From a virus (Duplodnaviria > Caudoviricetes), in IMG/VR virus record IMGVR_UViG_3300009184_000050, positions 1 through 59,329 of that record: a stretch of DNA of 59,329 nt, one strand, 5' to 3'. The notes beneath the pieces are model-generated. The model was not told the origin of the DNA. It did not search any database and saw only the letters and a list, made by a program, of their open reading frames with translations. Made by a program: the position numbers and the translations under genes. Of this stretch, positions 777 to 59,329 are shown piece after piece (position 1 is the first letter of the stretch; each line of letters starts with the position of its first letter).

Positions 777-854
777 GATGTTTCCATAAAATAGTTGACT
801 TTATTGTGTAAACGTGATACACTAATTATGTATTTATCACTTTGGACTTTTAAA

Positions 855-1889
855 TTGACAAATCAATCTATCAAACGTATCGGCTTTGCCTGCAAATTTT
901 CAGAAATCAACAAGAAAGGGGAAATCTCTAGCGTTGAAGGGCTTAACACAGGTGGTACTACACTTACCTTTCTCAAAAAAGTAAAGCGTGAGGTAGCCGA
1001 ACAAAAGATGTGGGATGTAATGGAAAAGAACATTACCAATACCCACAATCTTGTTAAGCGTGTTGCCACACTAGATCCTGCTCTAAAAATGGTCAGGCTA
1101 ACTAGTGATATGATGACTGGGTATACACACGGTGATTGGGAATACTTTTACAAACAAGGTGATGTTCGTAGGCGTATGGAACAACTTTTTGCGCCAATTG
1201 GTGAAACGGCAAGAGCAAATGATGTAAGACTTTCTTTTCATCCAGGACAATTTACAGTTCTCGCAAGTGCTAGTGAAGAAATCATAAATAACTCTATAAA
1301 GGAATTTGAATATCATGTTGACATGGCTAGGTGTATGGGATACGGCAAGGAATTCCAAAACATTAAAATCAACGTACACATCTCGGGTAAACGCGGTCCC
1401 CAAGGTATCAAAGACGTGGTTGGACGTTTATCCCCCGAAGCAAGAAACTCAATTACCATCGAGAATGACGAAATCTCATGGGGTATCGAGGCTAGCCTAG
1501 AGTTGGTAGATACCTGTGCTTTGGTCTTAGACATACATCATCATTGGGTAAAAACAGGCGAGTATATTAACGCAAATGATCCACGTATTCAAAAAATTAT
1601 TGATAGCTGGCGTGGTGTTAGGCCTACTCTTCACTACTCTGTTAGCCGTGAAGACTATCTTATTAATCATGCCCGAGACACCCTACCCAATTATAATGCA
1701 CTAATTGAATCGGGTAGTAATAAACAAAAACTTAGGGCTCATTCCGAATATTATTGGAATGATGCGGTCAATGATTGGGCACTCAGCCACTGGGAATGGG
1801 CGGATGTTCTTTGTGAGGCAAAAGCAAAAAATCTTGCCTCATTTAAGTTATTTGACTATGCTAAAGAAACGATGGGTTCCATTTCTTAA
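855..1889 (+). CDS. uvsE: UV damage endonuclease UvsE
   Basis: RIGFACK, RLSFHPGQF, INVHISG, IENDE, LDIHHHW, LRAHS, EAKAKN motifs. Start moved to TTG 855 because the track start at 795 is a -35 box. Confidence 0.93.
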   Translation: MTNQSIKRIGFACKFSEINKKGEISSVEGLNTGGTTLTFLKKVKREVAEQKMWDVMEKNITNTHNLVKRVATLDPALKMVRLTSDMMTGYTHGDWEYFYKQGDVRRRMEQLFAPIGETARANDVRLSFHPGQFTVLASASEEIINNSIKEFEYHVDMARCMGYGKEFQNIKINVHISGKRGPQGIKDVVGRLSPEARNSITIENDEISWGIEASLELVDTCALVLDIHHHWVKTGEYINANDPRIQKIIDSWRGVRPTLHYSVSREDYLINHARDTLPNYNALIESGSNKQKLRAHSEYYWNDAVNDWALSHWEWADVLCEAKAKNLASFKLFDYAKETMGSIS

Positions 1890-8176: not shown

Positions 8177-8661
8177 TAATAAACACCTTCATTACGCATT
8201 CTTTTAATAAATGACAAGTATGAGCTACATATACCATAACACCTAACATGTACTGTACTGAATAGTCCTCTATCATTTATTTCAGGAAGGAAAAGAATAC
8301 TAGAAGTACTTATAGGAATAGTTCCTGGAGTAATGATTTGACCACCGCTAGCAGTAGTTGGATTGTTTTCATTGACATTATTAAACCAAAAATAATTTGG
8401 ATATAGTTTGGCTGGTTGAGTAACAATCCATTCTTGCATTTCAGTATTGATAGCATTAATCCAAAATCTTTTACCTTGTAGATATTTTGGAGTTACTTCA
8501 ATTACAGGTTGTCTAGTTCCAATATAGAGTATACCATTGACACGCCATACGTCAACCATGCAAGAATAACCGGCGTTGAATGCATTTGTAATTTGCTGAG
8601 GAGTGTTAGCCTTGTCAAAATTTTGACCATCGAAAACACCTTGATAGGATATGTATAACAT
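8173..8661 (-). CDS. Degenerate GDPD/PLC-like phosphodiesterase fold
   Basis: ISYQG..NT....AF.AGY....DVW resembles ISHRG..EN.......G....E.DVW but lacks the His/Glu residues. Confidence 0.55.
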   Translation of the reverse strand: MLYISYQGVFDGQNFDKANTPQQITNAFNAGYSCMVDVWRVNGILYIGTRQPVIEVTPKYLQGKRFWINAINTEMQEWIVTQPAKLYPNYFWFNNVNENNPTTASGGQIITPGTIPISTSSILFLPEINDRGLFSTVHVRCYGICSSYLSFIKRMRNEGVYY

Positions 8662-8781
8662 CTAGTATTTATGATTATGGGCAAAGAGTTTTTACAAACT
8701 GTCAACGGAATCTGTATCTCGCACGTTAATATATATGTAGATGCAAAAATCTACGTTTCATTTTTTATAAAGGAAAACCAA

Positions 8782-9054
8782 ATGAAAACAATCGCTACTT
8801 TAATCGCTGGTCTTTTTGCTGTTACCGCTTTTGCTTCTGAGCCTGTTAAGGCACCTGCCGCTGCTCCTGCTGCTGCTCCTGCTGCTGCTCCTACTGAGCT
8901 TAAGCTTCCTGCTAAGGCCCCTACTGCTGCACCTGCTAAAGTAGATGCAGTTACCAAGCAAGACGTTGCCAAGCCTGCCAAAAGTGAAGACAAGGCTCCT
9001 GCCAAAGCAGACGCAAAGGCTGTTGCGCCAGCTACCTCGACCACAGCTAAGTAA
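8782..9054 (+). CDS. Secreted Ala/Pro/Lys-rich protein
   Basis: AAGGA SD; signal peptide MKTIATLIAGLFAVTAFA; APAAA repeats. Confidence 0.85.
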   Translation: MKTIATLIAGLFAVTAFASEPVKAPAAAPAAAPAAAPTELKLPAKAPTAAPAKVDAVTKQDVAKPAKSEDKAPAKADAKAVAPATSTTAK

Positions 9055-9238
9055 TCTTTGTTTTGATGATGACGGTGACGGTACCACTGTTGAAGACTTA
9101 GACTTACATGCAGGTTACCGTCGTGACATTATTTCACCAAAAAAGATAGTACAACCTGAGTTTAATGATTATATTAAATCTAGGTTAGTATTATCTAGGT
9201 ACTTAGCACTTAGAAAGTACGACGAAAAATGGGGATAA
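8945..9238 (+). CDS. Possible overlapping ORF, start uncertain
   Basis: Protein-like 3' part (9055-9238) ends at the terminator; its only starts lie inside the upstream gene. Confidence 0.4.
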   Translation: MQLPSKTLPSLPKVKTRLLPKQTQRLLRQLPRPQLSNLCFDDDGDGTTVEDLDLHAGYRRDIISPKKIVQPEFNDYIKSRLVLSRYLALRKYDEKWG

Positions 9239-9253
9239 TTATCCCCATTTTTT
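9225..9253. terminator. Bidirectional intrinsic terminator
   Basis: AAAAATGGGGATAATTATCCCCATTTTTT perfect inverted repeat. Confidence 0.75.
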
Positions 9254-9264
9254 AGCACACAAAA

Positions 9265-9295
9265 TGCTGCATTGCAAAAAATTAGGACTAAATAC
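9265..9295 (+). promoter_or_regulatory. PhaR-like TGC-N3-GCA box upstream of TAAATA promoter
   Basis: TGCTGCATTGCAAAA at 9265-9279; CTAAATAC at 9288-9295. Confidence 0.45.
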
Positions 9296-9341
9296 ATCAG
9301 TAATAATCATAAGTTATTACTAAACAAAAGGAGAACATACA

Positions 9342-9500
9342 ATGTTTATATTATTTGAGAAATTCATGAACTTGCTAAATCGGTTCACTACACATAAAAC
9401 AGACCTAGAAAGATTTATTGCTGCCCACAATCCACAACACGGTGGAGATGTAGATAATCTTATTCGCCAATATACATATGGTAAAAGAGGATTTGTATAA
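9342..9500 (+). CDS. Small protein (52 aa)
   Basis: AAAGGAG SD; MFILFEKF...DLERFIAAHNPQHGGDVDNLIRQY. Confidence 0.75.
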   Translation: MFILFEKFMNLLNRFTTHKTDLERFIAAHNPQHGGDVDNLIRQYTYGKRGFV

Positions 9501-9595
9501 TGAAATATATCCGTAAATTTTATGAATGGCTAGCTGTTTGGAGCGAAGTTGTCTATGAATATCGTAAGCGCAATAATATTCATCATTACTATTAA
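9500..9595 (+). CDS. Small protein (31 aa)
   Basis: TAATG coupling; MKYIRKFYEWLAVWSEVVYEYRKRNNIHHYY. Confidence 0.6.
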   Translation: MKYIRKFYEWLAVWSEVVYEYRKRNNIHHYY

Positions 9596-9596
9596 A

Positions 9597-9674
9597 ATGG
9601 ACATGTTAAACTTCATCATGGCATTGTGTTATTTTTTAAAGTTTGACCCTAAAAACTTTGAGGTCCATCCGTAA
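9597..9674 (+). CDS. Small protein (25 aa)
   Basis: 1-nt gap from previous ORF; MDMLNFIMALCYFLKFDPKNFEVHP. Confidence 0.45.
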   Translation: MDMLNFIMALCYFLKFDPKNFEVHP

Positions 9675-9733
9675 TGTGGCCCGTTACAGATGAAGAATGG
9701 GAAGAATTAAATTTCCCTGAGAAATTTAAATAA
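9674..9733 (+). CDS. Small protein (19 aa)
   Basis: TAATG coupling; MWPVTDEEWEELNFPEKFK. Confidence 0.45.
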   Translation: MWPVTDEEWEELNFPEKFK

Positions 9734-9748
9734 GATAAATATTATAAT

Positions 9749-9994
9749 ATGATTAATCCACTACTTCCATGGTTCAAGCCCACAATGAATGCAGCATTTT
9801 TTATTGATGCATTTCAAGGTGTCAAGCGTGATTTAACTGACAAGATAATTACAGATCCCACACTAAATCGTGCTGCTCATAATTATATCAATAGTCAAAC
9901 AGAATTTGCCAAGATGCTGACTGATAATGCAGTTGATCTTGCCCACTATTCTATGGATTGTATTTCAGAGAGGTACTTTCCAAAGAAAGACTAA
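9749..9994 (+). CDS. Phasin-like amphipathic helical protein
   Basis: FFIDAFQGVKRDLTDKII...YINSQTEFAKML, all-helical amphipathic pattern. Confidence 0.5.
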   Translation: MINPLLPWFKPTMNAAFFIDAFQGVKRDLTDKIITDPTLNRAAHNYINSQTEFAKMLTDNAVDLAHYSMDCISERYFPKKD

Positions 9995-10037
9995 TCCACT
10001 TTACGGATTGACATTACACACACATAGGAGAAATAAA

Positions 10038-10304
10038 ATGTCAGACTACACACCAAAACTTCCCGAAGTTAAATTCAACAAGAACGGATATGAAATCCGC
10101 ACAGAAATCCTCGATATGGCTAAAAGCCTTATGATGGAAGAATACCACGCTAAATTCCATGGTTGGGAAATCTCGGCACAGCGTGATGAAAAATCAGGAC
10201 AGGTTGTTACTACAATTGGTATGCCACAGTTTCCTGGACTTGAGCAAGTACTATCTACAGCAGAAAAAATGTACAGCTTTGTTAACGCAGGTATCAAGAA
10301 GTAA
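10038..10304 (+). CDS. Hypothetical T4-like phage protein
   Basis: AGGAG SD; KNGYEIRTEILDMAK...AEKMYSFV. Confidence 0.8.
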   Translation: MSDYTPKLPEVKFNKNGYEIRTEILDMAKSLMMEEYHAKFHGWEISAQRDEKSGQVVTTIGMPQFPGLEQVLSTAEKMYSFVNAGIKK

Positions 10305-10321
10305 GAGTTCACTGCCCAACG

Positions 10322-10344
10322 CCCCCGAAAGGGGGTATTTTTTT
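10322..10344 (+). terminator. Intrinsic terminator
   Basis: CCCCC-GAAA-GGGGG followed by T-tract. Confidence 0.8.
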
Positions 10345-10406
10345 GGCTTGACAATAATTGAATTTGGGCGTAAAATAGATTCATACACTGAGAAAACGGA
10401 GTTGTC

Positions 10407-10736
10407 ATGAAGATGCTAGAAAAGGAAACCGAGTTCAAAAGCGCGGGTTACTATGCATGGTGTGCTTCTAGGGACGCAAGTATGCGTAGCGCAGTCAACG
10501 CTAGCCGGTTCAATAGTGCTCAAAAACTCAGGGCTGACCGAGTAAAATTAGCCCTAGAGTTGGTCTATACGGCTAAGGAAGTGTCAATTACTAACTGCCA
10601 AAAATGGATCCGAGTTAAGGTGCATGGTGGGACGGTCCGTGACAAAAAAGCCCTCCAACTGTTGGAAAGTGATTGGGCTATGCAAGGAATCCAAAAAAAC
10701 ATCACCCCTCAGGGCGTGATTTATCGTGTTGCTTAA
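10407..10736 (+). CDS. Early hypothetical protein
   Basis: Follows cassette 1. Confidence 0.8.
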   Translation: MKMLEKETEFKSAGYYAWCASRDASMRSAVNASRFNSAQKLRADRVKLALELVYTAKEVSITNCQKWIRVKVHGGTVRDKKALQLLESDWAMQGIQKNITPQGVIYRVA

Positions 10737-10817
10737 AAACAACAGGCCCAAAATTTGACAATAATTAGTCTTGGCTATACAATAGAATCTTAAACAGTTA
10801 AACAACGGAGAGCAGAA

Positions 10818-11102
10818 ATGGTAACAATTCAGGACATCAATTCTACTATTATCGCCGGTTCTTTCACAAACGAACAACTGGATTCCATTGCAATGGCAAT
10901 CAAGTTTGCCCGCAATCAACTAGCCGCAAAGGCAAAGTTTACCTTGGTTAAGGGTACTAATGTCAAGTTTACATCTAGCCGTACCGGTCAAACTGTGCTT
11001 GGTACAGTTGAAAAGGTAAATCGAAAGTTCATAATTGTGCGTGAAAACGGTAAGGCATATGGTACTTGGCGTGTCCCCGCCAATATGCTGGAAGCCGCTT
11101 GA
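10818..11102 (+). CDS. Early protein with SH3/KOW-like C-terminus
   Basis: G..VKF......GTVEKVNRKFIIV...WRVPA; follows cassette 2. Confidence 0.75.
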   Translation: MVTIQDINSTIIAGSFTNEQLDSIAMAIKFARNQLAAKAKFTLVKGTNVKFTSSRTGQTVLGTVEKVNRKFIIVRENGKAYGTWRVPANMLEAA

Positions 11103-11178
11103 TTGTTCAGCCCAAAATTTGACAATAAATCGGTTTATCTGTATAATAGATTCATACACTGAGAAAACGGAGAAACAA

Positions 11179-11592
11179 ATGGCTTATATCAATCAAGACC
11201 GTAAAGCGAAAATGGCCCCCACAATCAAGGCAATCTTGACCAAGTATGGTGTCAAGGGCTCGCTAAGTATTCGTAATCACAGTACACTGGTTCTCACCCT
11301 GAAGTCAGGAAAAATTGATTTCATCGGCAACAGCAACCAAGTTTGTGGTAATGATTTTTACCAAGTTTCTCGTGGTTTTAAACCGAATACTTCGGGCTAC
11401 TGTGATGTTAACCCCTACTGGTACAAGGATCACTATGACGGTCTTGCACTGTCCTTTCTCAAGGAAGTAATCGTGGCAATGAATGATGGCAACCACGACA
11501 ATTCGGATATTCAATCCGACTATTTTGATGTGGGTTGGTACATTGATGTTAACGTAGGTAAGTGGGATAAGCCTTACATTGTTGAAGCCTAA
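11179..11592 (+). CDS. Early hypothetical protein
   Basis: ATG after cassette 3; DNSDIQSDYFDVGWY motif. Confidence 0.85.
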   Translation: MAYINQDRKAKMAPTIKAILTKYGVKGSLSIRNHSTLVLTLKSGKIDFIGNSNQVCGNDFYQVSRGFKPNTSGYCDVNPYWYKDHYDGLALSFLKEVIVAMNDGNHDNSDIQSDYFDVGWYIDVNVGKWDKPYIVEA

Positions 11593-11614
11593 TCAGGCAT
11601 ACAAGGAGATCACC

Positions 11615-11827
11615 GTGGGTTACAAAGTTTTGGCGGATAAGCACCAAATGGACATGATGCGTGAGAAATATAGCCCACGCAAGGGCCTTGAAGGTCCGTT
11701 CAACTTCTCGGGTCGGGTGTTGTATTATGACAACAAAGAGGGTCAGTATTACGATCCCAAGACCGACTTCTACGTGGAACAGGCAGAGATGGATCAGATC
11801 CACAATCAGTTGATTGCCAAACTTTGA
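11615..11827 (+). CDS. Early hypothetical protein
   Basis: AAGGAG SD plus GTG; GLEGPF..GRVLYYD.KEGQYYDP.TDFY. Confidence 0.8.
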   Translation: MGYKVLADKHQMDMMREKYSPRKGLEGPFNFSGRVLYYDNKEGQYYDPKTDFYVEQAEMDQIHNQLIAKL

Positions 11828-11883
11828 CAATAAATGGATTTGGGCGTATACTGTATTCATACGCTGAGAAAACAGGAGCAGAT

Positions 11884-12345
11884 ATGAAAATCGTCATCAA
11901 CACTCAAATCCGTGAAAACTACGGTTCGGCTCTTACCCCTTACTGGAAGTTCAAGGGCGGGGACGTTTATGTTGTCCCTAACCTCACCCCCGCGCAGGTC
12001 CTCAAGGTCAAGGAATCGGGTATCCCTACTCTCACGGCCCTGATTGAAACCCGTAACGCAAGTTTCGAGGAGTACGTGGTTGATTGGTACATCGCCGATG
12101 ACGGTGACAAGGCCTGTCAAGAGTGGGAGGTTCCATTTGAACTTCGTTACACTGGTGGCAAGTGGGTCGCTAGCCGTGTCATTGTCAATGACGGATATAT
12201 GCGCCGTGAGGTTGTTAGCAAAACCGAACAGTATGATATGTTTCCGGGTGGTGAGCGTGAGAACTACACTACAGTGTTTATGATGCGTAACGGTGACATT
12301 GTGCCTGGTAAAATGGTTGACGCTTACTTGACAAAGGCCGCTTAA
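11884..12345 (+). CDS. Early hypothetical protein
   Basis: MKIVINTQIRENYG...YWKFKGG; follows cassette 4. Confidence 0.85.
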   Translation: MKIVINTQIRENYGSALTPYWKFKGGDVYVVPNLTPAQVLKVKESGIPTLTALIETRNASFEEYVVDWYIADDGDKACQEWEVPFELRYTGGKWVASRVIVNDGYMRREVVSKTEQYDMFPGGERENYTTVFMMRNGDIVPGKMVDAYLTKAA

Positions 12346-12362
12346 GTCTACGGAAGTTAAAA

Positions 12363-12554
12363 ATGAACGAACTGATTAAACAATTAGCGCACGAAGCTGG
12401 ACTAACCCTTTCTGTAGACCAACAAATTGCATTTCAACGTGCGGCCGAACTCATTGTAAAAGAATGTATGTTGCAGGTAAAGGAAGTGGTAATTCCTATT
12501 ACGGCAGATGCTATTGAAGATAAAATTAAAGAACATTTTGGAGTTAGCAAATGA
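12363..12554 (+). CDS. Small hypothetical protein (paralog of 28039)
   Basis: MNELIKQLA...AELIVKEC. Confidence 0.7.
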   Translation: MNELIKQLAHEAGLTLSVDQQIAFQRAAELIVKECMLQVKEVVIPITADAIEDKIKEHFGVSK

Positions 12555-12715
12555 GAAATACTTTTTATGTCCATTGCGCCGAATGTCAGGATCGACATTA
12601 TGTAGATAAGGTTGAATTCCTCGATGTTGAGGAAGATTATATGGGCCGAGACATTATGCATTTTGTCTGCCCTAAAACATTGAATGAATCTAAATCTTTA
12701 GTGTATAAAGAATGA
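12551..12715 (+). CDS. Small Cys-containing protein (54 aa)
   Basis: ATGA overlap; HCAECQDRH...FVCP. Confidence 0.65.
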   Translation: MRNTFYVHCAECQDRHYVDKVEFLDVEEDYMGRDIMHFVCPKTLNESKSLVYKE

Positions 12716-12739
12716 CTAAATTAAATTTGGAGTTGAACA

Positions 12740-12856
12740 ATGAGGTTTAGCCTTACTGAACTTTTCTCTTGGATGCCGATTCTGATCGCCGGCTTCTTGG
12801 TATTTTTTGTAGTCTGTGCAGGTGTTGCGAAAATCATACAACTATTCACAGGTTGA
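12740..12856 (+). CDS. Small membrane protein (38 aa)
   Basis: GGAG SD; WMPILIAGFLVFFVVCAGVAKII. Confidence 0.55.
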   Translation: MRFSLTELFSWMPILIAGFLVFFVVCAGVAKIIQLFTG

Positions 12857-12912
12857 CAATAATTGGCTTCCCCTGTATAATGTATTCATACACTGAGAAA
12901 ACGGAGAAACAA

Positions 12913-13599
12913 ATGGCTCGCTATCAACGCCCAGTTCTGAATCTTGACGCTGACACTGTTTGGTCGGCTGCTTGTGCGGCTCAACGCATCAACGGTGAGT
13001 ATGTTAAAATAGTGACCTCATACGCTACCAATGATGAGATTCTGCCCAATTCGTTGGAGCAGGCTGCATCGGCCGAAACTAAGCGTACCAACCGTCAAAT
13101 CATTGACCTGCTCCTCGCTGATACTAGCATGATCACCGACGCCGACCGCGTTCAGGCTGAGGCTGTTCGCAAGTATTACAAAGGGTTCACTTTCAAAATC
13201 CTTCAAGGCAAGATGTTGTCAGAGTTTGACAACAACGCAATGGTTATCGCTAACCGCGATGTTATCGAAGCCACTTATGATGTTGCGGTGATCGCAAGTC
13301 TTCCTGCTTCGTATGAGCGGGCAGTTAAGCGTGACACACTTAACCGTAAGATTGAAAGCGTATCTGGTGGATTTGTCGGTAGCGTTGGTGATAAGGTCAA
13401 ACTCACGGTTGAGGTTGTTCGTAGTGTGTTTAGCCAACAGTGGAATGTGTTCTTTATCACTGGTATTACTAGTGACGATCAGGCAGTGTTCTTCAGCTAC
13501 CGCGAAGCGATCCCAGCTGGTAAGGTGATTGTCGCTCAGGGTACTGTCAAGGCTCACCGTGATAATACTACTCAACTCAACCGTGTGAAGGTGTCATAA
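12913..13599 (+). CDS. Early protein with C-terminal OB-fold-like domain
   Basis: FVGSVGDKVKLTVEV...GTVKAH...TQLNRVK; follows cassette 5. Confidence 0.8.
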   Translation: MARYQRPVLNLDADTVWSAACAAQRINGEYVKIVTSYATNDEILPNSLEQAASAETKRTNRQIIDLLLADTSMITDADRVQAEAVRKYYKGFTFKILQGKMLSEFDNNAMVIANRDVIEATYDVAVIASLPASYERAVKRDTLNRKIESVSGGFVGSVGDKVKLTVEVVRSVFSQQWNVFFITGITSDDQAVFFSYREAIPAGKVIVAQGTVKAHRDNTTQLNRVKVS

Positions 13600-46479: not shown

Positions 46480-47271
46480 GTGGCTACAAATAAAAATTTT
46501 GTAATAAAAAATGGGTTGACAGTAGGAACTACTGCTGATATTAATTCATCGGGCGTGTGGATTGGGCCTACAACAGGTTTGATAGGCCCGCAAGGTGCTG
46601 TTGGTTCTGCGGGAGCTGCAGGTCCACAAGGCCCACAAGGTCCAGCTGCACCAGGAGGGTCGGGAACAGCAGGTCCACAAGGTCCTAGAGGTCCGCAAGG
46701 CGCAACCGGTGCGCCGGGATCATCAGCGCCGGGGCCCAATGGTCCTCAAGGAGCTCAGGGACCAGCAGGAGCGATCGGTCCTACCGGGCCACAAGGCCCC
46801 GGAGGATCAACGGGGGGAACAGGTCCACAAGGGCCTACTTCACAATTACAAACATCAGTTACTTCATTAGGAGTAGGGACTGCTGCCAGCGGTACTACAG
46901 GTGAGATAAGAGCCAGTGGTAATATAACAGGTTTTTATTCAGATGTAAGATTAAAAGATAATATATCCAATATAACCGAGTCTCAACAAATTTTACAAAA
47001 ATTGCGAGGTGTATATTTTAATCAAAATGAATTTGCTGAAAAATTTGGATATCATGACCATAGTAAACAAATTGGCGTAATAGCACAAGAAGTACAAGAG
47101 GTTGTACCTGAAGCAGTTACTATAGCACCATTTGATTTAATATCTGATGTAAGTAGATCAGGTGAAAATTACCTAACAGTAAATTATTTTAAATTGATAC
47201 CTGTGATAATAGAAAGCATCAAGCTACACCAACGTGAAATAAATATGATCAAAGGACAGGTAAAATCATGA
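46480..47271 (+). CDS. Collagen-like fibre with S74 domain
   Basis: GXY repeats; [10 protein letters not shown]. Confidence 0.9.
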
Positions 47272-53260: not shown

Positions 53261-56200
53261 ATGGTTCAAGCAGTTAAAATCACCTCGCTTAATGATATCG
53301 GTACTAGTATCATGTATACTACATTGGTGCCTGTAGTAAACATGACCGGTACCCCTACTACTGAAAAAGCTAACCTACAAATCGTAGGAAATTTAATATT
53401 ATCAGGAGCAGGAGGTTCTTATTTTCCTCCTGCTGCTCAAGCAACTATATCGCAGTTTGTAGCATATGCTGCTCAACCCAATATTACATCAGTTGGTACA
53501 CTAACATCTTTAGCAGTATTAGGCAATATAACTAGTGGCAATGCTAATTTAGGCAATCTAGCAATAGCAAATGTATTTTCAGGTACATTAAATGGTAGTG
53601 CTGCTAGCGCAAATACTGCAAATACTGCCAACACTGTTACATTAAATGCTCAACCAAACATTACTTCTCTTGGTACACTAACATCTTTAAATGTTACAGG
53701 TTTAGCTAATCTAGGTGCTGTAACTAATATAACTATAACCGGTGGTAGTCCAAACTACGTACTACAAACAGATGGTAATGGTACGTTAAGTTGGGCAGCA
53801 CAAACTGGTGGCGGTGGTAATATCGGTAATTGGACTTTTGACAATGTTACAGCAACCACTCCAGAAAATATTATCGTACAAGCTGGACCTGCAACTAATT
53901 CTTGGGCAAGTTTACTAAGTAATGACGGCAACAATAGTTTATGGGTTGACAATTACGGAGCACATGTTACCACCGATTTTGCCGGAGCACAAAATTATTG
54001 GACTTTTGGCACAGACGGTAATCTAACGATACCGGGTAATCAAGGAAGTATTGGAACTGTATATGCAGATGGTATTGACATTATAGCTCCAATTGGTGGT
54101 TATGCTGAACTAGCTTCTGGTAACTTAAACAACTTCATATATGTACAGGATGAAGGTGCATATGTGAATACAGATAGAAACGGTGTTGACCATCAATGGT
54201 TGTTTGATACAAGTGGTAGACTAACATTCCCTGATACTACTCTTGCAGGACGTGACCTAGAAGGTACAGGTGATTTTGGATTTGAAATGCCGGCTAATGT
54301 TGGTTTCACTATTTTAGCTGATCTTGGAAATAGTCAATGGACATTTGGCGCAGATGGTAACTTAACCACACCGGGTAATATTATCTTAGATAATATCGGT
54401 GATGCTAATATCAGTTCTGATGCAAATATTAATATTAATGCAGCAGGTAATATTTGGCAATTTGGCGCAGATGGTAACTTAACCACACCGGGTAATATTA
54501 TTCTTGATGTTGCAGGTGATGCTAATATCAGTTCTGATGCAAATATTAATATTAATGCAGCAGGTAATATTTGGCAATTTGGCGCAGATGGCTCCTTACA
54601 AGTGCCAGCAAATTTTGCTGATCCTATCCCAGGCACTATTGCCGCAGCAAACGGTTATCCAACATTGCTGGCATACGGCAGCGGAAGCGGAGGAGGCTTT
54701 GGAGTCCACGGCGGTCCTGAACTGGATTGGATGAACGCCGACGACCCTGCTAATAATTTTGGTAATAGTAGTGTATTACGCCACACCGCGTTTCTAAATG
54801 CCACTGGTTTTTACATCGGAATGAATGAAAACCACGTGGTAGGAAATACAACCGCAAATTGGCTTTTCACCCCTAGTGGCAATTTAAGATTACCTTATTC
54901 TAGTACTACAGCAAATTTATCTTTCACAATGACCAATATAGGCAGTGTTGCCTATAATAGTGCCTCTCCATTAAGTAGTGGTGGTAGTTTAGAATTTGTA
55001 GGTGACGAGTCAAATCATTTCTTAGTAGTACCTAATGAAGCAAGATTTGCTCCTGGCACGGGTGACTTTACTATTGAATGGTATCAATATGTAACTAGCG
55101 ATGGTCATGCATGGCCAAGACCATTCAGTCTTGGTGTTTGCTGTAGTAACATCAACAGTTTGTTAGTGGGGTTATTTGAAGGTGGCTCTAACATTATGGC
55201 AATACAGACACAATCTGGTTATAATCCCTTCTCTGGTTGGAATAATACATTAAATGTTTGGCAACATATTGCTGTGGTGCGCTCGTCAGGTACAGTAACT
55301 ATCTATCAAAACGGTGTAGCATTTAATTCTGTTTCCATACCAGATGATATTGCTTACAATCCTACAAACGGTTATTTCCTAAGCATCGGTAGCCCAACAG
55401 CAGATGGTACAACAGGTAATGAAAGTATTAATTCGCAGTACGTTGGTTTAATAACAAATATGCGTTATGTTGTTGGTACAGCAGTTTACACCGGCAACTT
55501 TACACCAAGTACTGATCCACTAACTTTAATTTCGGGCACAGAGTTGTTGCTACAAGTTGCAAATTCAGGTACACTTGCTGAAGCACTTTATATCGGAACC
55601 ATAGTAAACAATTCATCTATTATTTCAAACGGCAATGCTTGGACATTTGGCGGTGACGGCAATCTAACATTACCAGGTAATACATCAGGTATCAACTCTA
55701 CTGGTAACGTTCAAATCAATTCTAATGCTCAGTCCTGGAACTTTGGTGCAGATGGTTCTACAATATTCCCTACATTAACTACACAGCGTGGTGACAATCC
55801 TAGTGGCACAATCACCGGTCAAACATTGTTGTTTGGTGATGTTAATCAAGAAGCAATCATTTCAACACCTAACGGTATTGATAGTATTCCTGACAGTCAA
55901 CGTTTAGTAATCAATCCTGGTCAAGGGTACGACGACGGAGAAGGCGGAGACATTTATCTATGGGCTGGTCGCGGTGGTAATGGTTCAGGATCAGGCGGTG
56001 ACATTAAGATTCGCGGTGGTCAAGGTGGTGCTAACACTAGTGGTGGCACAGGTGGCGCGGGTGGTTACATTCGTATCGAAGCCGGTGATGCAGCCAGTGC
56101 AGGATTCCCCGGATATGTTGATATTAACGGTGGTAATAGTTCTATCGCACAAGGCGGATATGTTGAAATCTTAGGTGGACAAGGTGCAACAATTGGTGGC

Positions 56201-59200
56201 GATGCAAATCTTAAAGGTGGTTATGGTACTGCAACAGGCGGTAATGTTAATATTTGGGGAGGCGCATCAGGTAACGGTCAGGTCAATGAAGGGGATGTAA
56301 ATATTCAAACCGGTGGTAACACTTGGACATTTGATCCTTCAGGTAACTTACAATTACCAGACACCACAAGCGTTATTGCTAACGTAAGCATAACACTTGA
56401 AGCAAACGACACAGGGAATATCACGGGATTAAGTCTAACCGGCGATGCCCACGCAAATCTATATGCTCATGGTAATGTGAATATAGTTAGCGATAGTAGT
56501 AACACTACTGCGACTTGGACATTTGGCACAGATGGTACTACAACATTCCCTAATCCACTACCAAATGCCCGCAGTCAAATCTATACTACAAACGGTGGAT
56601 ACCAAACAGTATTTGAAGCATTTAGTGTCAAAGGCAACGGACAGAAACTTACATTAGACTATGATGCCGCTGAAGTAAAAATACAAACACAGGTTGGCAC
56701 AGAATGGACATTTGGACAATATGGTAACACAATATTTCCTAATGGTACTACTATCAGCAATAAAGAAACTAATTTAACTAAGGGTCCAGCATTAAATTCA
56801 TTTGGCAGCGATAGTTATACAGGAATCTTCACTACTTTGAACTATACTGGGCTTGATACAACTTGGATTGTCAACGGTCCTAACGTTGCCAATGGTGTGA
56901 TACAGAGCATTGATGCGGCTGGTCAAACTATAATTTTAGATAGAAACTCAGGCGGTCCACAATTCCAAAATGGTCAAAGCTACACATTTACCGGCCCATT
57001 AGTCAGTATTGGCACTGACATCACAGTTAATAGCAATAGCTGGACCTTTGGTGCGGATGGTAACTTAACACTACCTGCGAATGCGTTTGCTATCAATTAC
57101 GCTAATGGTACCCAAGTGTCCTTAGGTGGCGGCAACATTACTTGGGCACAGTTAGACGATAAAAATGGTAACAGTGGACCTACTACAATAGCCCTAGGTC
57201 AGAATGCCGGACTTGACGGTCAAGGCAATGCCGCAATAGCAATTGGTAAAAATGCTGGACAAGGCGGTCAAGGTGCGTCATCAATAACAATCGGAGAAGA
57301 TGCCGGTGGTAACACTACTCAAGGCGCCAATTCAGTAGCAATTGGTAGATCGGCTGGTTTTGATGCACAAGGTATAGGTGCTGTTGCTATTGGATCTGGT
57401 GCAGGGTCAAATAGTCAAGGTAATCAAAGTGTTGCAATCGGAGAAAATGCAGGTGTAATCCAAGGATCAACCGCAGTAGCAATTGGAAAAAATTCCGGTG
57501 GCAGTGAGGCTTTACAAGGTGATGACGCAGTGGCTATTGGTCACAGTGCAGGTGAAAGTACTCAAGGCACACAATCAGTTGCTATTGGCTTATATGCTGG
57601 ACAGACCACTCAAGGCGTTAACGCAGTAGCGATTGGTGCTAATGCAGGTATTACAAGTCAAGGTAACAACTCAATCATATTGAATGCTACTGGTGCTAAC
57701 TTAAATCAAACCACAGCAAATACATTCACAGTGAAACCAGTAAGACAAGCCAATACAGCAAATGCCATGTATTATGATGCATCTACTGGTGAGATCACAT
57801 ATGACACTGCCGGCGGTGGTAACGCTAATACAGGCAATGTTACATTTAATAATATCAATGTCATTGGTACAGGAAACTTAAAACTACAACCCGATTCTGC
57901 TAACGCTAATGCTTATTTGGATGTCTATTTAACTGGAGGTCCAGACATTCATATTGCTGGCAACGGTGAAACTGTTATTCTCGGGACTGATAACTTTGCT
58001 AATGTCGCTGTCAATGTTAATGGTAATGTGTCTATACAAGCCGGTGATGCCAATGGCACACATACTTGGAACTTTGATACTGCTGGTAACTTAACACTAC
58101 CCGAAGGTGGTATCATCTATGAAACTAACATTCCAGGTGGGGTATTAACTGGCAATACCATTGTTCTAAAGCCACAGGGCGGAACCAATGCTGACCAACA
58201 GTTACTTGTTTATCCAACAGCAATTGGTGCTGACTTCAATCACCTGCACATGACCTCAGGTAATTTATACAATACTGAATTATTCTTAGGTAATGATGAC
58301 TTCTATGTAAAATTAGCCAACACTGGTAACGTTATTATCAACAGCAATGATGACAATGGTAATACTGCTATGTGGACATTTGGCACAGATGGTAATTTAA
58401 CATTACCGCAACTTACTACAATCAATGATGTAAGCGACAATGGTACTAGATTAACAGTGGGTGTTCCACCGACTGTAATAGCTATCAGTGGTGCAGATTT
58501 TAGTCCAGTGAATACTACTTACAATAGAGACTTTGGTCAAGCAACTCCAACTTGGTACCCAGCTGGTTATACGCCAGGTGTTGATCCTTATATAATGTTT
58601 ACAGGTGGTCAATATGGGATTTATAATCCTGGATTTGTCCCACCGCTTTATGTCAACACTGGTACATTGAATACACCATTAATACAATGGAATACTAATC
58701 CTCCATTAGGCAGCGTTCCCCCTACAGCAGTATATACATATGGTGTTACTGGGCCTGCTTGGAACTTTGGTACAGATGGTAATCTAACATTGCCGGGCAA
58801 TCTAGTAATCAATGGTCTTGCAAATGTATTTGGATCAAATGTTGCATTATTACAATCAAATCCTGATCTACCATTACTATCAGTATCAAGTGGTAGCAAT
58901 GGTGCTGTATCAAGTCTTTGGGTAGAAGACATTGGCAACGTCGGCACTAGTAATATAGCGGCAGTATATGCTAATCCTACTTCAGGATCAAAGATTGTTA
59001 GAATAGCAGTAGGACAAAATGGTGGTAACGCTGGTCCTAATCTATGGGACTTTAATGCTAATGGTACTACAACATTCCCGGGTAACTTGATTAGTAGTGG
59101 TGCAAGCCCTGCCCCAAGTATTAGTGGTTTCTCTAGTGTAAGCGCATCAACATTTACTAACGGTAACTCAAATGTAACTATCAATTCTAACTCAAAGTCA

Positions 59201-59329
59201 TGGTTATTTGATAGTACCGGCAACGCAACATTCCCGGCAAACGGAACAACAGCTTTACATAATATCACAGGCAACGGTTTAGCATTGTTTGGTCAAGTTC
59301 ATATTGGTGGTAACTTAAATTATGCAGAA
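53261..59329 (+). CDS. Giant modular tail fibre/adhesin (>2023 aa, truncated by window end)
   Basis: ATG 53261 after TAAATA; same frame at spot checks (53999, 59282) and no stop-terminated ORF in the track. AQPNITS.GTL repeats, many W.FG.DG.L..P motifs, LamG/ConA-like domain (~55030-55560), YadA-head-like QG..A.AIG..AG repeats (~57180-57700). Confidence 0.88.
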   Translation, partial: MVQAVKITSLNDIGTSIMYTTLVPVVNMTGTPTTEKANLQIVGNLILSGAGGSYFPPAAQATISQFVAYAAQPNITSVGTLTSLAVLGNITSGNANLGNLAIANVFSGTLNGSAASANTANTANTVTLNAQPNITSLGTLTSLNVTGLANLGAVTNITITGGSPNYVLQTDGNGTLSWAAQTGGGGNIGNWTFDNVTATTPENIIVQAGPATNSWASLLSNDGNNSLWVDNYGAHVTTDFAGAQNYWTFGTDGNLTIPGNQGSIGTVYADGIDIIAPIGGYAELASGNLNNFIYVQDEGAYVNTDRNGVDHQWLFDTSGRLTFPDTTLAGRDLEGTGDFGFEMPANVGFTILADLGNSQWTFGADGNLTTPGNIILDNIGDANISSDANININAAGNIWQFGADGNLTTPGNIILDVAGDANISSDANININAAGNIWQFGADGSLQVPANFADPIPGTIAAANGYPTLLAYGSGSGGGFGVHGGPELDWMNADDPANNFGNSSVLRHTAFLNATGFYIGMNENHVVGNTTANWLFTPSGNLRLPYSSTTANLSFTMTNIGSVAYNSASPLSSGGSLEFVGDESNHFLVVPNEARFAPGTGDFTIEWYQYVTSDGHAWPRPFSLGVCCSNINSLLVGLFEGGSNIMAIQTQSGYNPFSGWNNTLNVWQHIAVVRSSGTVTIYQNGVAFNSVSIPDDIAYNPTNGYFLSIGSPTADGTTGNESINSQYVGLITNMRYVVGTAVYTGNFTPSTDPLTLISGTELLLQVANSGTLAEALYIGTIVNNSSIISNGNAWTFGGDGNLTLPGNTSGINSTGNVQINSNAQSWNFGADGSTIFPTLTTQRGDNPSGTITGQTLLFGDVNQEAIISTPNGIDSIPDSQRLVINPGQGYDDGEGGDIYLWAGRGGNGSGSGGDIKIRGGQGGANTSGGTGGAGGYIRIEAGDAASAGFPGYVDINGGNSSIAQGGYVEILGGQGATIGGDANLKGGYGTATGGNVNIWGGASGNGQVNEGDVNIQTGGNTWTFDPSGNLQLPDTTSVIANVSITLEANDTGNITGLSLTGDAHANLYAHGNVNIVSDSSNTTATWTFGTDGTTTFPNPLPNARSQIYTTNGGYQTVFEAFSVKGNGQKLTLDYDAAEVKIQTQVGTEWTFGQYGNTIFPNGTTISNKETNLTKGPALNSFGSDSYTGIFTTLNYTGLDTTWIVNGPNVANGVIQSIDAAGQTIILDRNSGGPQFQNGQSYTFTGPLVSIGTDITVNSNSWTFGADGNLTLPANAFAINYANGTQVSLGGGNITWAQLDDKNGNSGPTTIALGQNAGLDGQGNAAIAIGKNAGQGGQGASSITIGEDAGGNTTQGANSVAIGRSAGFDAQGIGAVAIGSGAGSNSQGNQSVAIGENAGVIQGSTAVAIGKNSGGSEALQGDDAVAIGHSAGESTQGTQSVAIGLYAGQTTQGVNAVAIGANAGITSQGNNSIILNATGANLNQTTANTFTVKPVRQANTANAMYYDASTGEITYDTAGGGNANTGNVTFNNINVIGTGNLKLQPDSANANAYLDVYLTGGPDIHIAGNGETVILGTDNFANVAVNVNGNVSIQAGDANGTHTWNFDTAGNLTLPEGGIIYETNIPGGVLTGNTIVLKPQGGTNADQQLLVYPTAIGADFNHLHMTSGNLYNTELFLGNDDFYVKLANTGNVIINSNDDNGNTAMWTFGTDGNLTLPQLTTINDVSDNGTRLTVGVPPTVIAISGADFSPVNTTYNRDFGQATPTWYPAGYTPGVDPYIMFTGGQYGIYNPGFVPPLYVNTGTLNTPLIQWNTNPPLGSVPPTAVYTYGVTGPAWNFGTDGNLTLPGNLVINGLANVFGSNVALLQSNPDLPLLSVSSGSNGAVSSLWVEDIGNVGTSNIAAVYANPTSGSKIVRIAVGQNGGNAGPNLWDFNANGTTTFPGNLISSGASPAPSISGFSSVSASTFTNGNSNVTINSNSKSWLFDSTGNATFPANGTTALHNITGNGLALFGQVHIGGNLNYAE
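54344..54591 (+). repeat. Tandem 117-bp duplication inside the fibre gene
   Basis: TTTGGCGCAGATGGTAACTTAACCACACCGGGTAATATTAT at 54344 and 54461. Confidence 0.9.

What the first reader, a model, noticed from the sequence alone, without database searches (positions are those of the whole stretch)
9265..10304. PhaR-like operator, micro-ORF chain and phasin-like gene: possible sensing or hijacking of host PHA stores
Seen: TGCTGCATTGCA just upstream of a TAAATA promoter, then four tightly coupled 19-52 aa ORFs missed by the track, and an amphipathic phasin-like ORF. Known: PhaR binds TGC-N3-GCA-type sites at phasin promoters and releases DNA when PHA is present. Inference: the operon is switched on in PHA-rich hosts and coats or mobilises granules.
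Basis: partly seen in the sequence, partly recalled or inferred. Interest (0 to 1): 0.7.

Follow-up and report, generated by a model that had tools for sequence, protein, structure and literature searches.

The report
Phage operon behind phasin-type PhaR operator
An uncultured freshwater giant phage carries a small-gene operon whose promoter holds the same DNA site that bacteria place in front of their phasin genes, so the phage may read its host's carbon-store status through the host repressor PhaR.

Summary
Between two terminators (9224-9253 and 10321-10346) lie a palindromic site (core TGCTGCATTGCAA, 9265-9277), a TAAATA box, four translationally coupled micro-ORFs (52, 31, 25 and 19 aa), an 81-aa two-helix protein and an 88-aa protein.

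All six ORFs are conserved and under purifying selection (pN/pS 0.09-0.30).

The operator reading is supported in silico:
- The site fits four published PhaR/PhbF consensus motifs.
- With a weight matrix built from 52 sites in Legionellales phaR-phasin spacers it scores 22.6 bits. Host sites score 13.1-29.9, the next-best window position scores 6.3, and 0 of 200 random windows reach 22.6.
- The same matrix finds a site beside the phasin gene in 31 of 32 loci from mixed Pseudomonadota.
- In 36 of 99 distinct related phage loci a host-grade site lies upstream of the operon. Only 1 lies in the other 367 kb.
- No PhaR gene was found in the phage records, so the binder would be the host's.

The phasin reading is not supported by homology (HMMs, profile-profile comparison, fold search). 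The 81-aa protein is only amphipathic and helical.

Sister phages carry a cupin and an alpha/beta-hydrolase in its place. The host, PhaR binding and any action on granules are untested.

The parts
9224..9253 (+). Intrinsic terminator of the upstream gene. It is a symmetric hairpin (AAAAATGGGGATAATTATCCCCATTTTTT), so it could act in both directions.
   Evidence: RNA fold -16.5 kcal/mol, z -6.5, 0 of 200 shuffles as good. Conserved in near relatives.
9262..9282 (.). PhaR-type operator, a 21-nt palindromic site. Core TGCTGCATTGCAA is 9265-9277 and TGC-N3-GCA is 9268-9276.
   Evidence: Scores 22.6 bits on a matrix built from 52 Legionellales phaR-phasin spacer sites. Next-best window position 6.3; 0 of 200 random windows reach 22.6. 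The minus strand reads TGCAATGCAGCA, a perfect TGCRNYGCASMA. Fits TG[N]TGC[N]3GCAA. Conserved in relatives.
9288..9295 (+). CTAAATAC box, the presumed -10-like promoter element (TATAAATA in several relatives).
   Evidence: Invariant or near-invariant columns in the alignment of 22 leader sequences. TAAATA recurs upstream of many other genes of the window. Promoter activity not shown.
9299..9321 (+). Leader stem-loop / conserved leader word (AGTAGAAACCATRAGT in relatives).
   Evidence: Fold -6.0 kcal/mol, z -3.1. Primary sequence conserved. RNAalifold finds no consensus structure. The word is not enriched elsewhere in the window.
9342..9500 (+). Micro-ORF 1, 52 aa, preceded by SD GGAG at 9330-9333.
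   Evidence: tblastn relatives in 42 of 56 loci, down to about 30% identity. pN/pS 0.30. No Pfam or PHROG family.
9500..9595 (+). Micro-ORF 2, 31 aa. Its start overlaps the stop of ORF 1 (TAATG).
   Evidence: 25 of 56 loci. 24 full-length ungapped homologues, giving 17 distinct nucleotide sequences with the window's own; all 17 have start and stop in place; pN/pS 0.13.
9597..9674 (+). Micro-ORF 3, 25 aa, with a hydrophobic N-terminus (MDMLNFIMALCYFLKF...).
   Evidence: 24 of 56 loci, 20 of them aligning only residues 17-41 of the 41-aa TTG form. pN/pS 0.15.
9674..9733 (+). Micro-ORF 4, 19 aa, acidic (MWPVTDEEWEELNFPEKFK). Its start overlaps the stop of ORF 3 (TAATG).
   Evidence: 13 full-length ungapped homologues, pN/pS 0.29. 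Distant relatives keep WWPVSNEEWEQLNYPERFK, fused to a hydrophobic N-terminus in L042.
9749..9994 (+). 81-aa amphipathic two-helix protein.
   Evidence: AlphaFold2 pLDDT 83.5, helices 15-33 and 37-76. 56 viral loci. 85 representative clusters at E<=0.001. pN/pS 0.09. No phasin homology.
10038..10304 (+). 88-aa protein, the conserved last gene (anchor) of the operon.
   Evidence: 3731 homologous 90% clusters, on contigs up to 359 kb, none with a name other than 'hypothetical protein'. At least 600 viral stretches. pN/pS 0.15. AlphaFold2 model poor, pLDDT 55.8.
10321..10346 (+). Intrinsic terminator closing the operon (GCCCCCGAAAGGGGGT plus a T run).
   Evidence: Terminator scan. Fold -14.5 kcal/mol. 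Followed at 10348 by a consensus TTGACA-17-TAAAAT promoter of the next unit.

Best explanation
The stretch is one transcription unit of an uncultured freshwater jumbo phage. The window is 59 kb, about 16% of the genome by CheckV.

The unit runs: terminator, a single palindromic operator of the type that Pseudomonadota place at phasin promoters for the PHB-sensing repressor PhaR, a TAAATA promoter box 12 nt downstream, a conserved leader, six small genes (52, 31, 25, 19, 81 and 88 aa), terminator.

Most likely mechanism:
- The host's own PhaR dimer binds the operator, which covers roughly -17 to -37 of the promoter.
- This keeps the operon off in cells without free granule surface.
- When PHB granules titrate PhaR away, as they do for phaP, the operon is transcribed.
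- The operon is therefore regulated like a phasin gene.

Shown:
- the anatomy;
- coding constraint on all six ORFs;
- the statistical match and the conservation of the site;
- no PhaR-family gene detected in the five phage records searched.

Inferred:
- that PhaR binds the site;
- that the host makes PHB;
- that the products act on granules or PHB metabolism.

The products are an amphipathic hairpin here, and a cupin plus a small esterase-like hydrolase at the same slot in sister phages.
For: Site against published motifs:
- The window site TGCTGCATTGCAA fits H. seropedicae PhbF TG[N]TGC[N]3GCAA. It fits R. sphaeroides CTGC[N]3GCAG with one mismatch (passages of PMC3206438).
- On the minus strand it fits B. 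diazoefficiens TGCRNYGCASMA perfectly (passages of PMC6201568).
- By my own reading it fits the S. meliloti 21-nt palindrome. That paper's manX site is AATTGCTGCATTGCGATATCT (passages of PMC12542648).

Site against host sites:
- 27 of the 29 Legionellales phaR loci fetched show two TGC-N3-GCA sites in the phaR-phasin spacer, flanking a TTGACA/-10 promoter.
- A matrix of those 52 sites gives the window site 22.6 bits. Host sites score 13.1-29.9 (median 25.4), the next-best window position scores 6.3, and 0 of 200 Markov windows reach 22.6.
- The same matrix finds a site of at least 13.1 bits in 31 of 32 phasin loci of mixed Pseudomonadota.

Conservation in phage relatives:
- 14 of 29 distinct upstream regions match TGCRNYGCASMA perfectly and 20 of 29 match with at most 1 mismatch. 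Changes fall on the degenerate R, N and Y positions.
- 36 of 99 distinct loci carrying the 88-aa gene have a host-grade site within 1.8 kb upstream (167 kb scanned). Only 1 site lies in the other 367 kb.
- The site stays next to the TAAATA/TATAAATA box even where the genes behind it differ.
- Of 16 TGNTGCNNNGCAR matches in five phage records, 2 are this operon's sites. All 11 others examined lie inside ORFs; 3 were not examined.

Other points:
- No PHB_acc_N or PHB_acc match in 0 of 5 phage records, one of them 95% complete.
- pN/pS is 0.09-0.30 for the six ORFs.
- Contigs of four lake RNA libraries lie on 8827-9686, 9762-10103, 9767-10245 and 10038-10312. Such libraries can hold DNA.
Against: - No binding assay exists, and the host is unknown.
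- 7 of 29 distinct upstream regions have the half-sites 4 nt apart instead of 3 (for example TGCGGTTGCAGCA). One group (L048) has no site.
- 63 of 99 loci have no site of at least 13.1 bits. Some of these loci are truncated upstream.
- Taken alone, a perfect consensus match in a window this size is not rare: 37 of 100 shuffles have one. An 18-mer shared with host loci also occurs at one unrelated place.
- The related phage sequences are not independent, so the counts partly reflect descent.
- None of the six proteins is homologous to a known PHA protein.
- No PHB depolymerase family was found in 0 of 5 phage records.
- If TAAATA is a phage-specific late-type promoter, repression by a host factor late in infection needs PhaR to survive infection.
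Confidence: 0.55

Rival explanations
1. The palindrome is the operator of a phage-encoded or other host dimeric regulator, for example autoregulation by one of the operon's own small proteins. It only resembles PhaR sites.
For: - There is one promoter-proximal site per phage genome, at the head of an operon of tiny proteins of unknown function.
- N4-spaced variants occur in 7 of 29 distinct upstream regions, and the site is lost in the L048 group. This suggests a co-evolving private binder.
- The 52-aa and 31-aa families always accompany the promoter.
Against: - The site scores inside the range of real phasin-promoter sites, flanks included. No such resemblance is required of a private operator.
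- In L076, L115 and L124 the site lies downstream of the two small genes and in front of the cupin gene. It therefore follows the promoter, not those genes.
- No DNA-binding family was found in any of the six proteins.
Confidence: 0.2
2. The site works as a decoy. Hundreds of replicating phage genomes titrate host PhaR and so derepress the host's own PhaR regulon (phasins, PHB depolymerases, central carbon genes). Control of the phage operon is secondary.
For: - PhaR represses phaZ depolymerases and many carbon-metabolism genes in B. diazoefficiens and S. meliloti (passages of PMC6201568 and PMC12542648).
- The phage keeps a high-scoring site but no recognisable depolymerase of its own.
Against: - There is only one site per genome.
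- Its fixed place beside the TAAATA box points to promoter control.
- Nothing here measures titration.
Confidence: 0.1
3. The resemblance is chance. The palindrome is just a promoter or UP-like element, or a leftover of a captured host promoter with no present regulation.
For: - TGC-N3-GCA is not enriched in the window.
- A perfect 12-mer consensus match occurs in 37 of 100 shuffles.
- In four relatives (L034, L035, L044, L045) TTGCAT inside the site is spaced 17 nt from a TATAAT or TACAAT. The site could therefore double as a -35.
Against: - 0 of 200 random windows reach the 21-nt matrix score.
- The core is kept while flanks and spacer diverge, and substitutions follow the consensus degeneracy.
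- 36 upstream sites against 1 elsewhere.
Confidence: 0.12

Closest known systems
phaP (phasin) promoters with PhaR/PhbF/AniA operators in Pseudomonadota
   Same: - Same palindrome (TG-N-TGC-N3-GCA-N-CA with A/T-rich flanks).
- Same placement on or next to the core promoter.
- Scores in the same range as sites beside phasin genes in 31 of 32 loci of mixed Pseudomonadota and in 27 Legionellales spacers.
- Motif published for four species.
   Different: - It sits on a lytic-type jumbo-phage genome, not a bacterial chromosome.
- There is one site instead of the usual two.
- The -10-like box is TAAATA rather than a sigma-70 TATAAT in most relatives.
- The genes behind it are not homologous to phasins.
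- Binding is not tested.
Phasins (Pfam Phasin_2 PF09361, NCBIfam TIGR01841)
   Same: - Small, helical and amphipathic.
- Placed behind a PhaR-type operator.
- A protein-language-model search lists a viral cluster auto-named 'Phasin family protein' (score 0.91). It also lists three PHA-related Pfam-bearing clusters as neighbours (0.86, 0.83, 0.80). These are leads only.
   Different: - No HMM match above cut-off.
- The profile-profile score is no better than reversed controls.
- No similarity to Legionellales phasins, which themselves match Phasin_2 at E 2.5e-18.
- 81 aa with two helices, against about 96-200 aa.
Phage genes gated by host nutrient or stress regulators (cyanophage pho-box/PhoB and NtcA sites, LexA boxes of prophages). 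Recalled from memory; no paper was read here.
   Same: A virus places a host transcription-factor site in front of accessory genes, so that expression follows host physiology.
   Different: The sensor would be PhaR and the signal carbon-storage granules. My searches found no description of this for a phage: no paper held phasin + bacteriophage + auxiliary metabolic; one review held polyhydroxyalkanoate + phage genome + phasin; 10 of 21 papers holding PhaR + bacteriophage + polyhydroxybutyrate were listed, none by title or abstract start on a phage.
T4-type late promoters (TATAAATA). Recalled from memory.
   Same: CTAAATAC here, and TATAAATAC in relatives such as L036, L038 and L057. TAAATA recurs upstream of many genes of the window, while other genes carry consensus TTGACA-17-TATAAT.
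   Different: No gp55/gp33-type factor was sought or found. Timing of expression is unknown.

Membership tests
PhaR/PhbF operator (DNA site) | Sequence fits the experimentally derived consensus (TGCRNYGCASMA; TG[N]TGC[N]3GCAA; CTGC[N]3GCAG; YGC-RNY-GCR palindrome with W-rich flanks). | tested here: met
   Perfect TGCRNYGCASMA on the minus strand at 9265-9276. TGNTGCNNNGCAR match at 9265-9277. Motifs taken from passages read.
PhaR/PhbF operator (DNA site) | Scores like sites found at real phasin promoters, and better than chance. | tested here: met
   22.6 bits against a host range of 13.1-29.9. 0 of 200 random windows reach it. The matrix finds sites in 31 of 32 phasin loci.
PhaR/PhbF operator (DNA site) | Lies on or next to the core promoter of the regulated gene. 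| tested here: inconclusive
   It ends 12 nt before the TAAATA box (7-19 nt in relatives). In L034, L035, L044 and L045 it contains the -35 of a TTGCAT-17-TATAAT/TACAAT promoter. No transcription start has been mapped.
PhaR/PhbF operator (DNA site) | Conserved in relatives. | tested here: met
   20 of 29 distinct upstream regions have at most 1 mismatch. 36 of 99 loci have a site upstream, against 1 elsewhere. 7 of 29 have N4 spacing and 1 group lacks the site.
PhaR/PhbF operator (DNA site) | PhaR protein binds it and releases it in the presence of PHB. | not testable with these tools
   Needs EMSA or footprinting and reporter assays.
PhaR/PhbF operator (DNA site) | A PhaR is present in the cell (host- or phage-encoded). 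| tested here: inconclusive
   No PHB_acc_N or PHB_acc in 0 of 5 phage records. The host is unknown. PhaR is present in 29 of 40 Legionellales genomes sampled. This clade is a candidate only because it holds the nearest UvdE relatives at 52% and 50% identity and because of its G+C content.
Phasin (Phasin_2 PF09361 / TIGR01841) | Matches the family HMM above its cut-off. | tested here: not met
   No hit for the window protein. Six-frame search of the window finds none at E<=10. 1 of 78 relatives hits at E 0.01 (Pfam) and 1 of 78 at E 0.0021 (NCBIfam); the output lists no bit scores, so the comparison with the curated cut-offs is my inference.
Phasin (Phasin_2 PF09361 / TIGR01841) | Profile-profile or fold similarity to phasins. 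| tested here: not met
   hhalign score 20.2 (P 0.004), against 18.0 and 18.1 for reversed controls. P 0.43 against 27 Legionellales phasins. 0 of 120 Foldseek PDB matches at E<=0.001.
Phasin (Phasin_2 PF09361 / TIGR01841) | Amphipathic helical protein. | tested here: met
   Two helices at pLDDT 83.5. Mean muH 0.37-0.39 in the helices, against 0.37 for Legionellales phasins. This property is generic.
Phasin (Phasin_2 PF09361 / TIGR01841) | Binds PHA granules. | not testable with these tools
   Needs localisation or binding assays.

The most novel reading that the evidence does not exclude
A widespread clade of uncultured freshwater jumbo phages uses the host's PHB-granule sensor PhaR as a switch. 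A copy of the phasin-promoter operator gates a swappable cargo slot. That slot holds a non-homologous phasin analogue in this phage, and a cupin plus a small esterase in sister phages. Accessory proteins that coat, protect or mobilise the host's carbon store would then be made only in cells that hold granules. This would be the first virus shown to read a host storage-polymer state. It would also tie the clade to PhaR-bearing Pseudomonadota as hosts.
Probability: 0.3. Interest if true: 0.85.

Novelty: new variant of a known kind. Interest (0 to 1): 0.7.

Why it matters
- Phages are known to wire accessory genes to host nutrient regulators. A link to carbon-storage granules through PhaR did not turn up in my literature searches.
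- If true, it gives a directly testable case of a virus sensing host energy reserves.
- It offers a functional handle on six orphan small proteins. One of them has 3731 homologue clusters in metagenomes.
- It gives a host clue for an abundant uncultured jumbo-phage group.
- It provides a regulatory 'guilt by operator' route to new granule-associated proteins.
- It shows that micro-ORFs of 19-31 aa missed by gene callers are conserved coding genes.

Tried and rejected
Searches that found nothing:
- DNA and protein searches of isolated phages (INPHARED): no match for the region, the 81-aa protein or the 88-aa protein.
- Rfam on 8600-13200: no family.
- Relatives of the 81-aa family in 185,579 species genomes: 77 pattern matches, none confirmed.
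- PHB depolymerase families PF10503 and PF06850: 0 of 5 phage records.

Models and structures that led nowhere:
- The 88-aa protein's AlphaFold2 model is too poor (pLDDT 55.8) to search by fold. Its profile has no PDB or phasin similarity.
- RNAalifold finds no consensus leader structure.
- The leader word AGTAGAAAC is not enriched: 13 matches against 16.5 expected.

Patterns and identities that proved uninformative:
- The strict palindrome TGYTGC-N3/4-GCARCA in five relatives' records gave 5 distinct palindromic sites (each matched on both strands; 3 in G001, 1 each in G002 and G005). None is at the operon, because the relatives' sites are half-degenerate.
- Exact 18-mer identity with three Legionellales site-A copies is real but not special. 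Another window region shares a 19-mer.

Host inference:
- The site alone cannot name the host clade. Equally good sites occur beside phasin genes of genomes with 43-68% G+C.

RNA libraries:
- Stretches without contig cover (for example 10463-10705) are not used as evidence.

The hydrolase of sister phages:
- The 191-aa hydrolase is only a generic Abhydrolase_6 with weak lipase hits (E 0.006-0.02). It cannot be called a PHB depolymerase.

- In one search the 19-aa ORF was entered one base out of frame, so its count there (16 loci) is void. replace it.
- Supplements of the three PhaR papers (site tables and promoter variants) could not be read and may hold further sites.
Full report
**What the window is.** The window is a whole IMG/VR virus record of 59,329 bp. 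CheckV rates it 16% complete, which implies a genome of roughly 350 kb. G+C is 32-43%. It encodes UvdE, a DEAD-type helicase, a 5'-3' exonuclease, an ATP-dependent ligase and collagen/S74 tail fibres. No isolated phage in INPHARED matches the region as DNA, or matches the two larger proteins.

**Anatomy.** The upstream gene ends in a strong symmetric hairpin with a T run at 9224-9253 (-16.5 kcal/mol, z -6.5).

The elements then run in this order:
- the palindromic site (21-mer 9262-9282; core TGCTGCATTGCAA 9265-9277);
- CTAAATAC (9288-9295);
- a leader with a 9-bp stem (9299-9321, -6.0 kcal/mol);
- SD GGAG (9330-9333);
- six ORFs: 9342-9500 (52 aa), 9500-9595 (31 aa), 9597-9674 (25 aa), 9674-9733 (19 aa), 9749-9994 (81 aa), 10038-10304 (88 aa);
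- a terminator (10321-10346).

The first four ORFs are joined by TAATG, TAAAATG and TAATG. Directly after the terminator a different promoter class begins. It is TTGACA-17-TAtAAT with a repeated leader, at 10348, 11119, 11824 and 12853, with a TTGACA-17-TACAAT promoter lacking that leader at 10755.

**The ORFs are genes.**
- Relatives of the 81-aa protein lie on 56 viral contigs.
- Relatives of the 88-aa protein lie on at least 600 viral stretches and form 3731 clusters at 90% identity, on contigs up to 359 kb.
- Within the 56 loci, tblastn finds the 52-aa ORF in 42, the 31-aa ORF in 25 and the third ORF in 24. In 20 of those 24 only its last 25 residues align.
- The 19-aa ORF was mis-framed. 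With the right frame it has 13 full-length ungapped homologues. It also survives as WWPVSNEEWEQLNYPERFK in distant relatives.
- Against the window, pN/pS is 0.30, 0.13, 0.15, 0.29, 0.09 and 0.15 for the six ORFs. Start and stop are kept in every distinct full-length copy.
- Contigs of four lake RNA libraries lie on 8827-9686, 9762-10103, 9767-10245 and 10038-10312. Such libraries may hold DNA, so this shows presence, not transcription.

**The site, taken alone.** The loose pattern TGC-N3-GCA is not enriched: 5 in the window against 11.2 +/- 3.2 in shuffles.

I then read what PhaR is known to bind:
- B. diazoefficiens footprints give TGCRNYGCASMA, with listed sites such as TGCAACGCACAA (phaP1) and TGCATTGCAACA (passages of PMC6201568).
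- S. meliloti gives the palindrome WNWD2NYGCRNYGCRNH2WNW, with the manX site AATTGCTGCATTGCGATATCT (passages of PMC12542648).
- H. seropedicae PhbF gives TG[N]TGC[N]3GCAA. The same paper quotes CTGC[N]3GCAG for R. sphaeroides (passages of PMC3206438).

The window site fits the first three motifs, and the R. sphaeroides motif with one mismatch. On the minus strand it is TGCAATGCAGCA, the only perfect TGCRNYGCASMA in the window. However, 37 of 100 shuffled windows also hold a perfect match.

**The site against real phasin promoters.** To obtain host sites I used bacterial genomes reached through the window's UvdE. Its nearest relatives are a Legionella MAG (52% identity) and a Tatlockia MAG (50%), against 44% or less for the rest.

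The Tatlockia genome has phaR directly followed by a Phasin_2 gene. The spacer holds two TGC-N3-GCA sites around a TTGACT promoter.

Of 40 Legionellales genomes scored, 29 have PhaR; one further genome was limited and not scored. In 27 of the 29 loci fetched the phaR-phasin spacer has the same plan:
- site A, (T)ATGCTGCAyTGCAAAAAAA, about 20 nt before TTGACA;
- site B, AAATTGTGCArTGCAACATA, after the -10.

A symmetrised matrix of these 52 sites gives the following:

| Item scored | Score (bits) |
|---|---|
| Window site 9262-9282 | 22.6 |
| Host sites (range; median) | 13.1-29.9; 25.4 |
| Next-best window position | 6.3 |
| Best of 200 first-order Markov windows | 20.3 |

As a check that the matrix marks phasin promoters in general, it finds a site of at least 13.1 bits in 31 of 32 phasin loci. 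These were drawn from an even sample of 61 Pseudomonadota genomes with G+C 43-68%.

The 18-mer ATGCTGCATTGCAAAAAA (9264-9281) is identical in three Legionellales spacers. A second, unrelated window region also shares 18-mers with those loci, so I give that identity no weight.

**Conservation in phage relatives.**
- Among 29 distinct upstream regions of the 52-aa gene, 14 hold a perfect TGCRNYGCASMA and 20 hold one with at most one mismatch. Shuffles give means of 0.00 and 0.20. The sequences are related, so these counts are not independent.
- The TGC and GCA triplets stay fixed while the N3 (ATT, AAT, ACT, ACC, AAC, GGT) and the flanks change.
- Near relatives keep the perfect half on the left (TGCTGC). 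Distant ones keep it on the right (GCAGCA). This is as expected for a two-fold site.
- Seven regions have the halves 4 nt apart, and the L048 group has none.
- Over 99 distinct loci with the 88-aa gene, 36 have a site of at least 13.1 bits within 1.8 kb upstream (167 kb). One site lies in the remaining 367 kb.
- In L076, L115 and L124 the site lies after the two small genes, directly before a TAAATA-type box (TATAAATA in L076) and the next gene. It therefore travels with the promoter.
- Of 16 TGNTGCNNNGCAR matches in five phage records, two are the operon sites. All 11 others examined are inside ORFs of at least 50 aa; three were not examined.
- No PHB_acc_N or PHB_acc domain is encoded in the five records, one of them 95% complete.

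**The 81-aa protein is not a recognisable phasin.**
- Pfam, PHROGs and NCBIfam give nothing for it.
- Among 24 close relatives no phasin family appears. Among 78 wider relatives one hits Phasin_2 at E 0.01 and one hits TIGR01841 at E 0.0021.
- Six-frame searches of the window with both models find nothing at E<=10.
- A profile search of 1.84 billion representatives finds 85 short relatives.
- A second search finds 251 proteins at E<=0.1. None of the 120 listed carries a Pfam domain or any name other than 'hypothetical protein'.
- AlphaFold2 gives a two-helix hairpin (pLDDT 83.5). None of 120 Foldseek PDB matches reaches E 0.001.
- hhalign against 33 real Phasin_2 proteins scores 20.2 (P 0.004). 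Reversed controls score 18.0 and 18.1, and column shuffles reach at most 15.3.
- Against 27 Legionellales phasins P is 0.43. Those phasins match Phasin_2 at E 2.5e-18.
- A language-model search does list a viral cluster auto-named 'Phasin family protein' (0.91), plus Phasin_2, PHB_acc and PhaE-bearing clusters (0.86-0.80). These are leads only.
- The helices are amphipathic.

Phasins are several unrelated families defined by function. The failed membership test therefore lowers 'it is a phasin', not 'it acts like one'.

**Cargo slot.** In sister phages the place of the 81-aa gene is taken by a Cupin_2 protein (137-138 aa) and a 191-aa Abhydrolase_6 protein with an AHSLGG nucleophile elbow. The latter has weak lipase hits in the PDB. 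One relative has an unrelated 203-aa insert. No known PHB depolymerase family is present.

**Reading.** The best-supported explanation is a phage operon regulated like a phasin gene. Host PhaR would sit on a single operator over the promoter and be released when granules appear. The binder, the host and the action of the products are inferred.

Rivals are a private regulator with a look-alike site, a PhaR decoy, and chance. The host cannot be named from the site. Legionellales are only a candidate, on the UvdE relatives and G+C.

**Novelty.** I found no paper describing a phage promoter under PhaR or a phage phasin. One search returned no paper. One returned a single review on polyphosphate. 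One returned 21 papers, of which 10 were listed; none of these is about phages by title or abstract start. Supplements of the PhaR papers were closed.

Noticed in passing
window 10348-12905: A run of consensus sigma-70 promoters (TTGACA-17-TAtAAT at 10348, 10755, 11119, 11824, 12853). At four of them (10348, 11119, 11824, 12853) an 81-86% identical leader follows (GATTCATACACTGAGAAAACGGAG) in front of small genes. This looks like an early-gene array with a repeated 5' leader.
   Followed up: partly
window 8779-9238: Two overlapping frames are both conserved in relatives. One is a signal-peptide plus Ala/Pro/Lys-rich ORF (8779-9054). The other is a +1-frame ORF (8945-9238) whose conserved C-terminal domain has no ATG start in some relatives. 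Possible frameshift or overlapping genes.
   Followed up: partly
window, upstream of 18196, 22750, 23080, 23547, 25096, 29729, 32855, 34820, 39840, 41783, 42710, 47268, 52159, 53261: TAAATA boxes sit 4-70 nt before many start codons, including the tail-fibre gene at 47268, while other genes carry TTGACA/TATAAT. This suggests a second, T4-late-like promoter class. Enrichment was not tested.
   Followed up: no
L071:1927-2915, L076:1917-2912, L101:2318-2893: Sister phages carry a Cupin_2 gene and a 191-aa alpha/beta-hydrolase (AHSLGG) in the slot of the 81-aa gene, behind the same operator and promoter.
   Followed up: partly
L270-L298 (Legionellales phaR loci), about 1900-2030 in phaR orientation: The phaR-phasin spacer of 27 Legionellales genomes has a fixed plan: site A, then TTGACA, 17 nt and the -10, then site B, then the SD and a 95-105-aa phasin. 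I know of no description of PhaR operators in this order. This rests on memory, not on a search.
   Followed up: partly
window 795-1889: The UvdE-type UV endonuclease gene has its nearest bacterial relatives in Legionella and Tatlockia MAGs (52% and 50% identity), against 44% or less in Enterobacterales. This is a weak host or donor hint.
   Followed up: partly
window 53261-59329: An open frame of more than 2023 aa runs off the window end, with no PHROG match at E<=1e-5.
   Followed up: no
L016:2355-2966: One close relative has a 203-aa gene with no Pfam match inserted between the 19-aa and 81-aa genes. This shows the operon accepts insertions.
   Followed up: no
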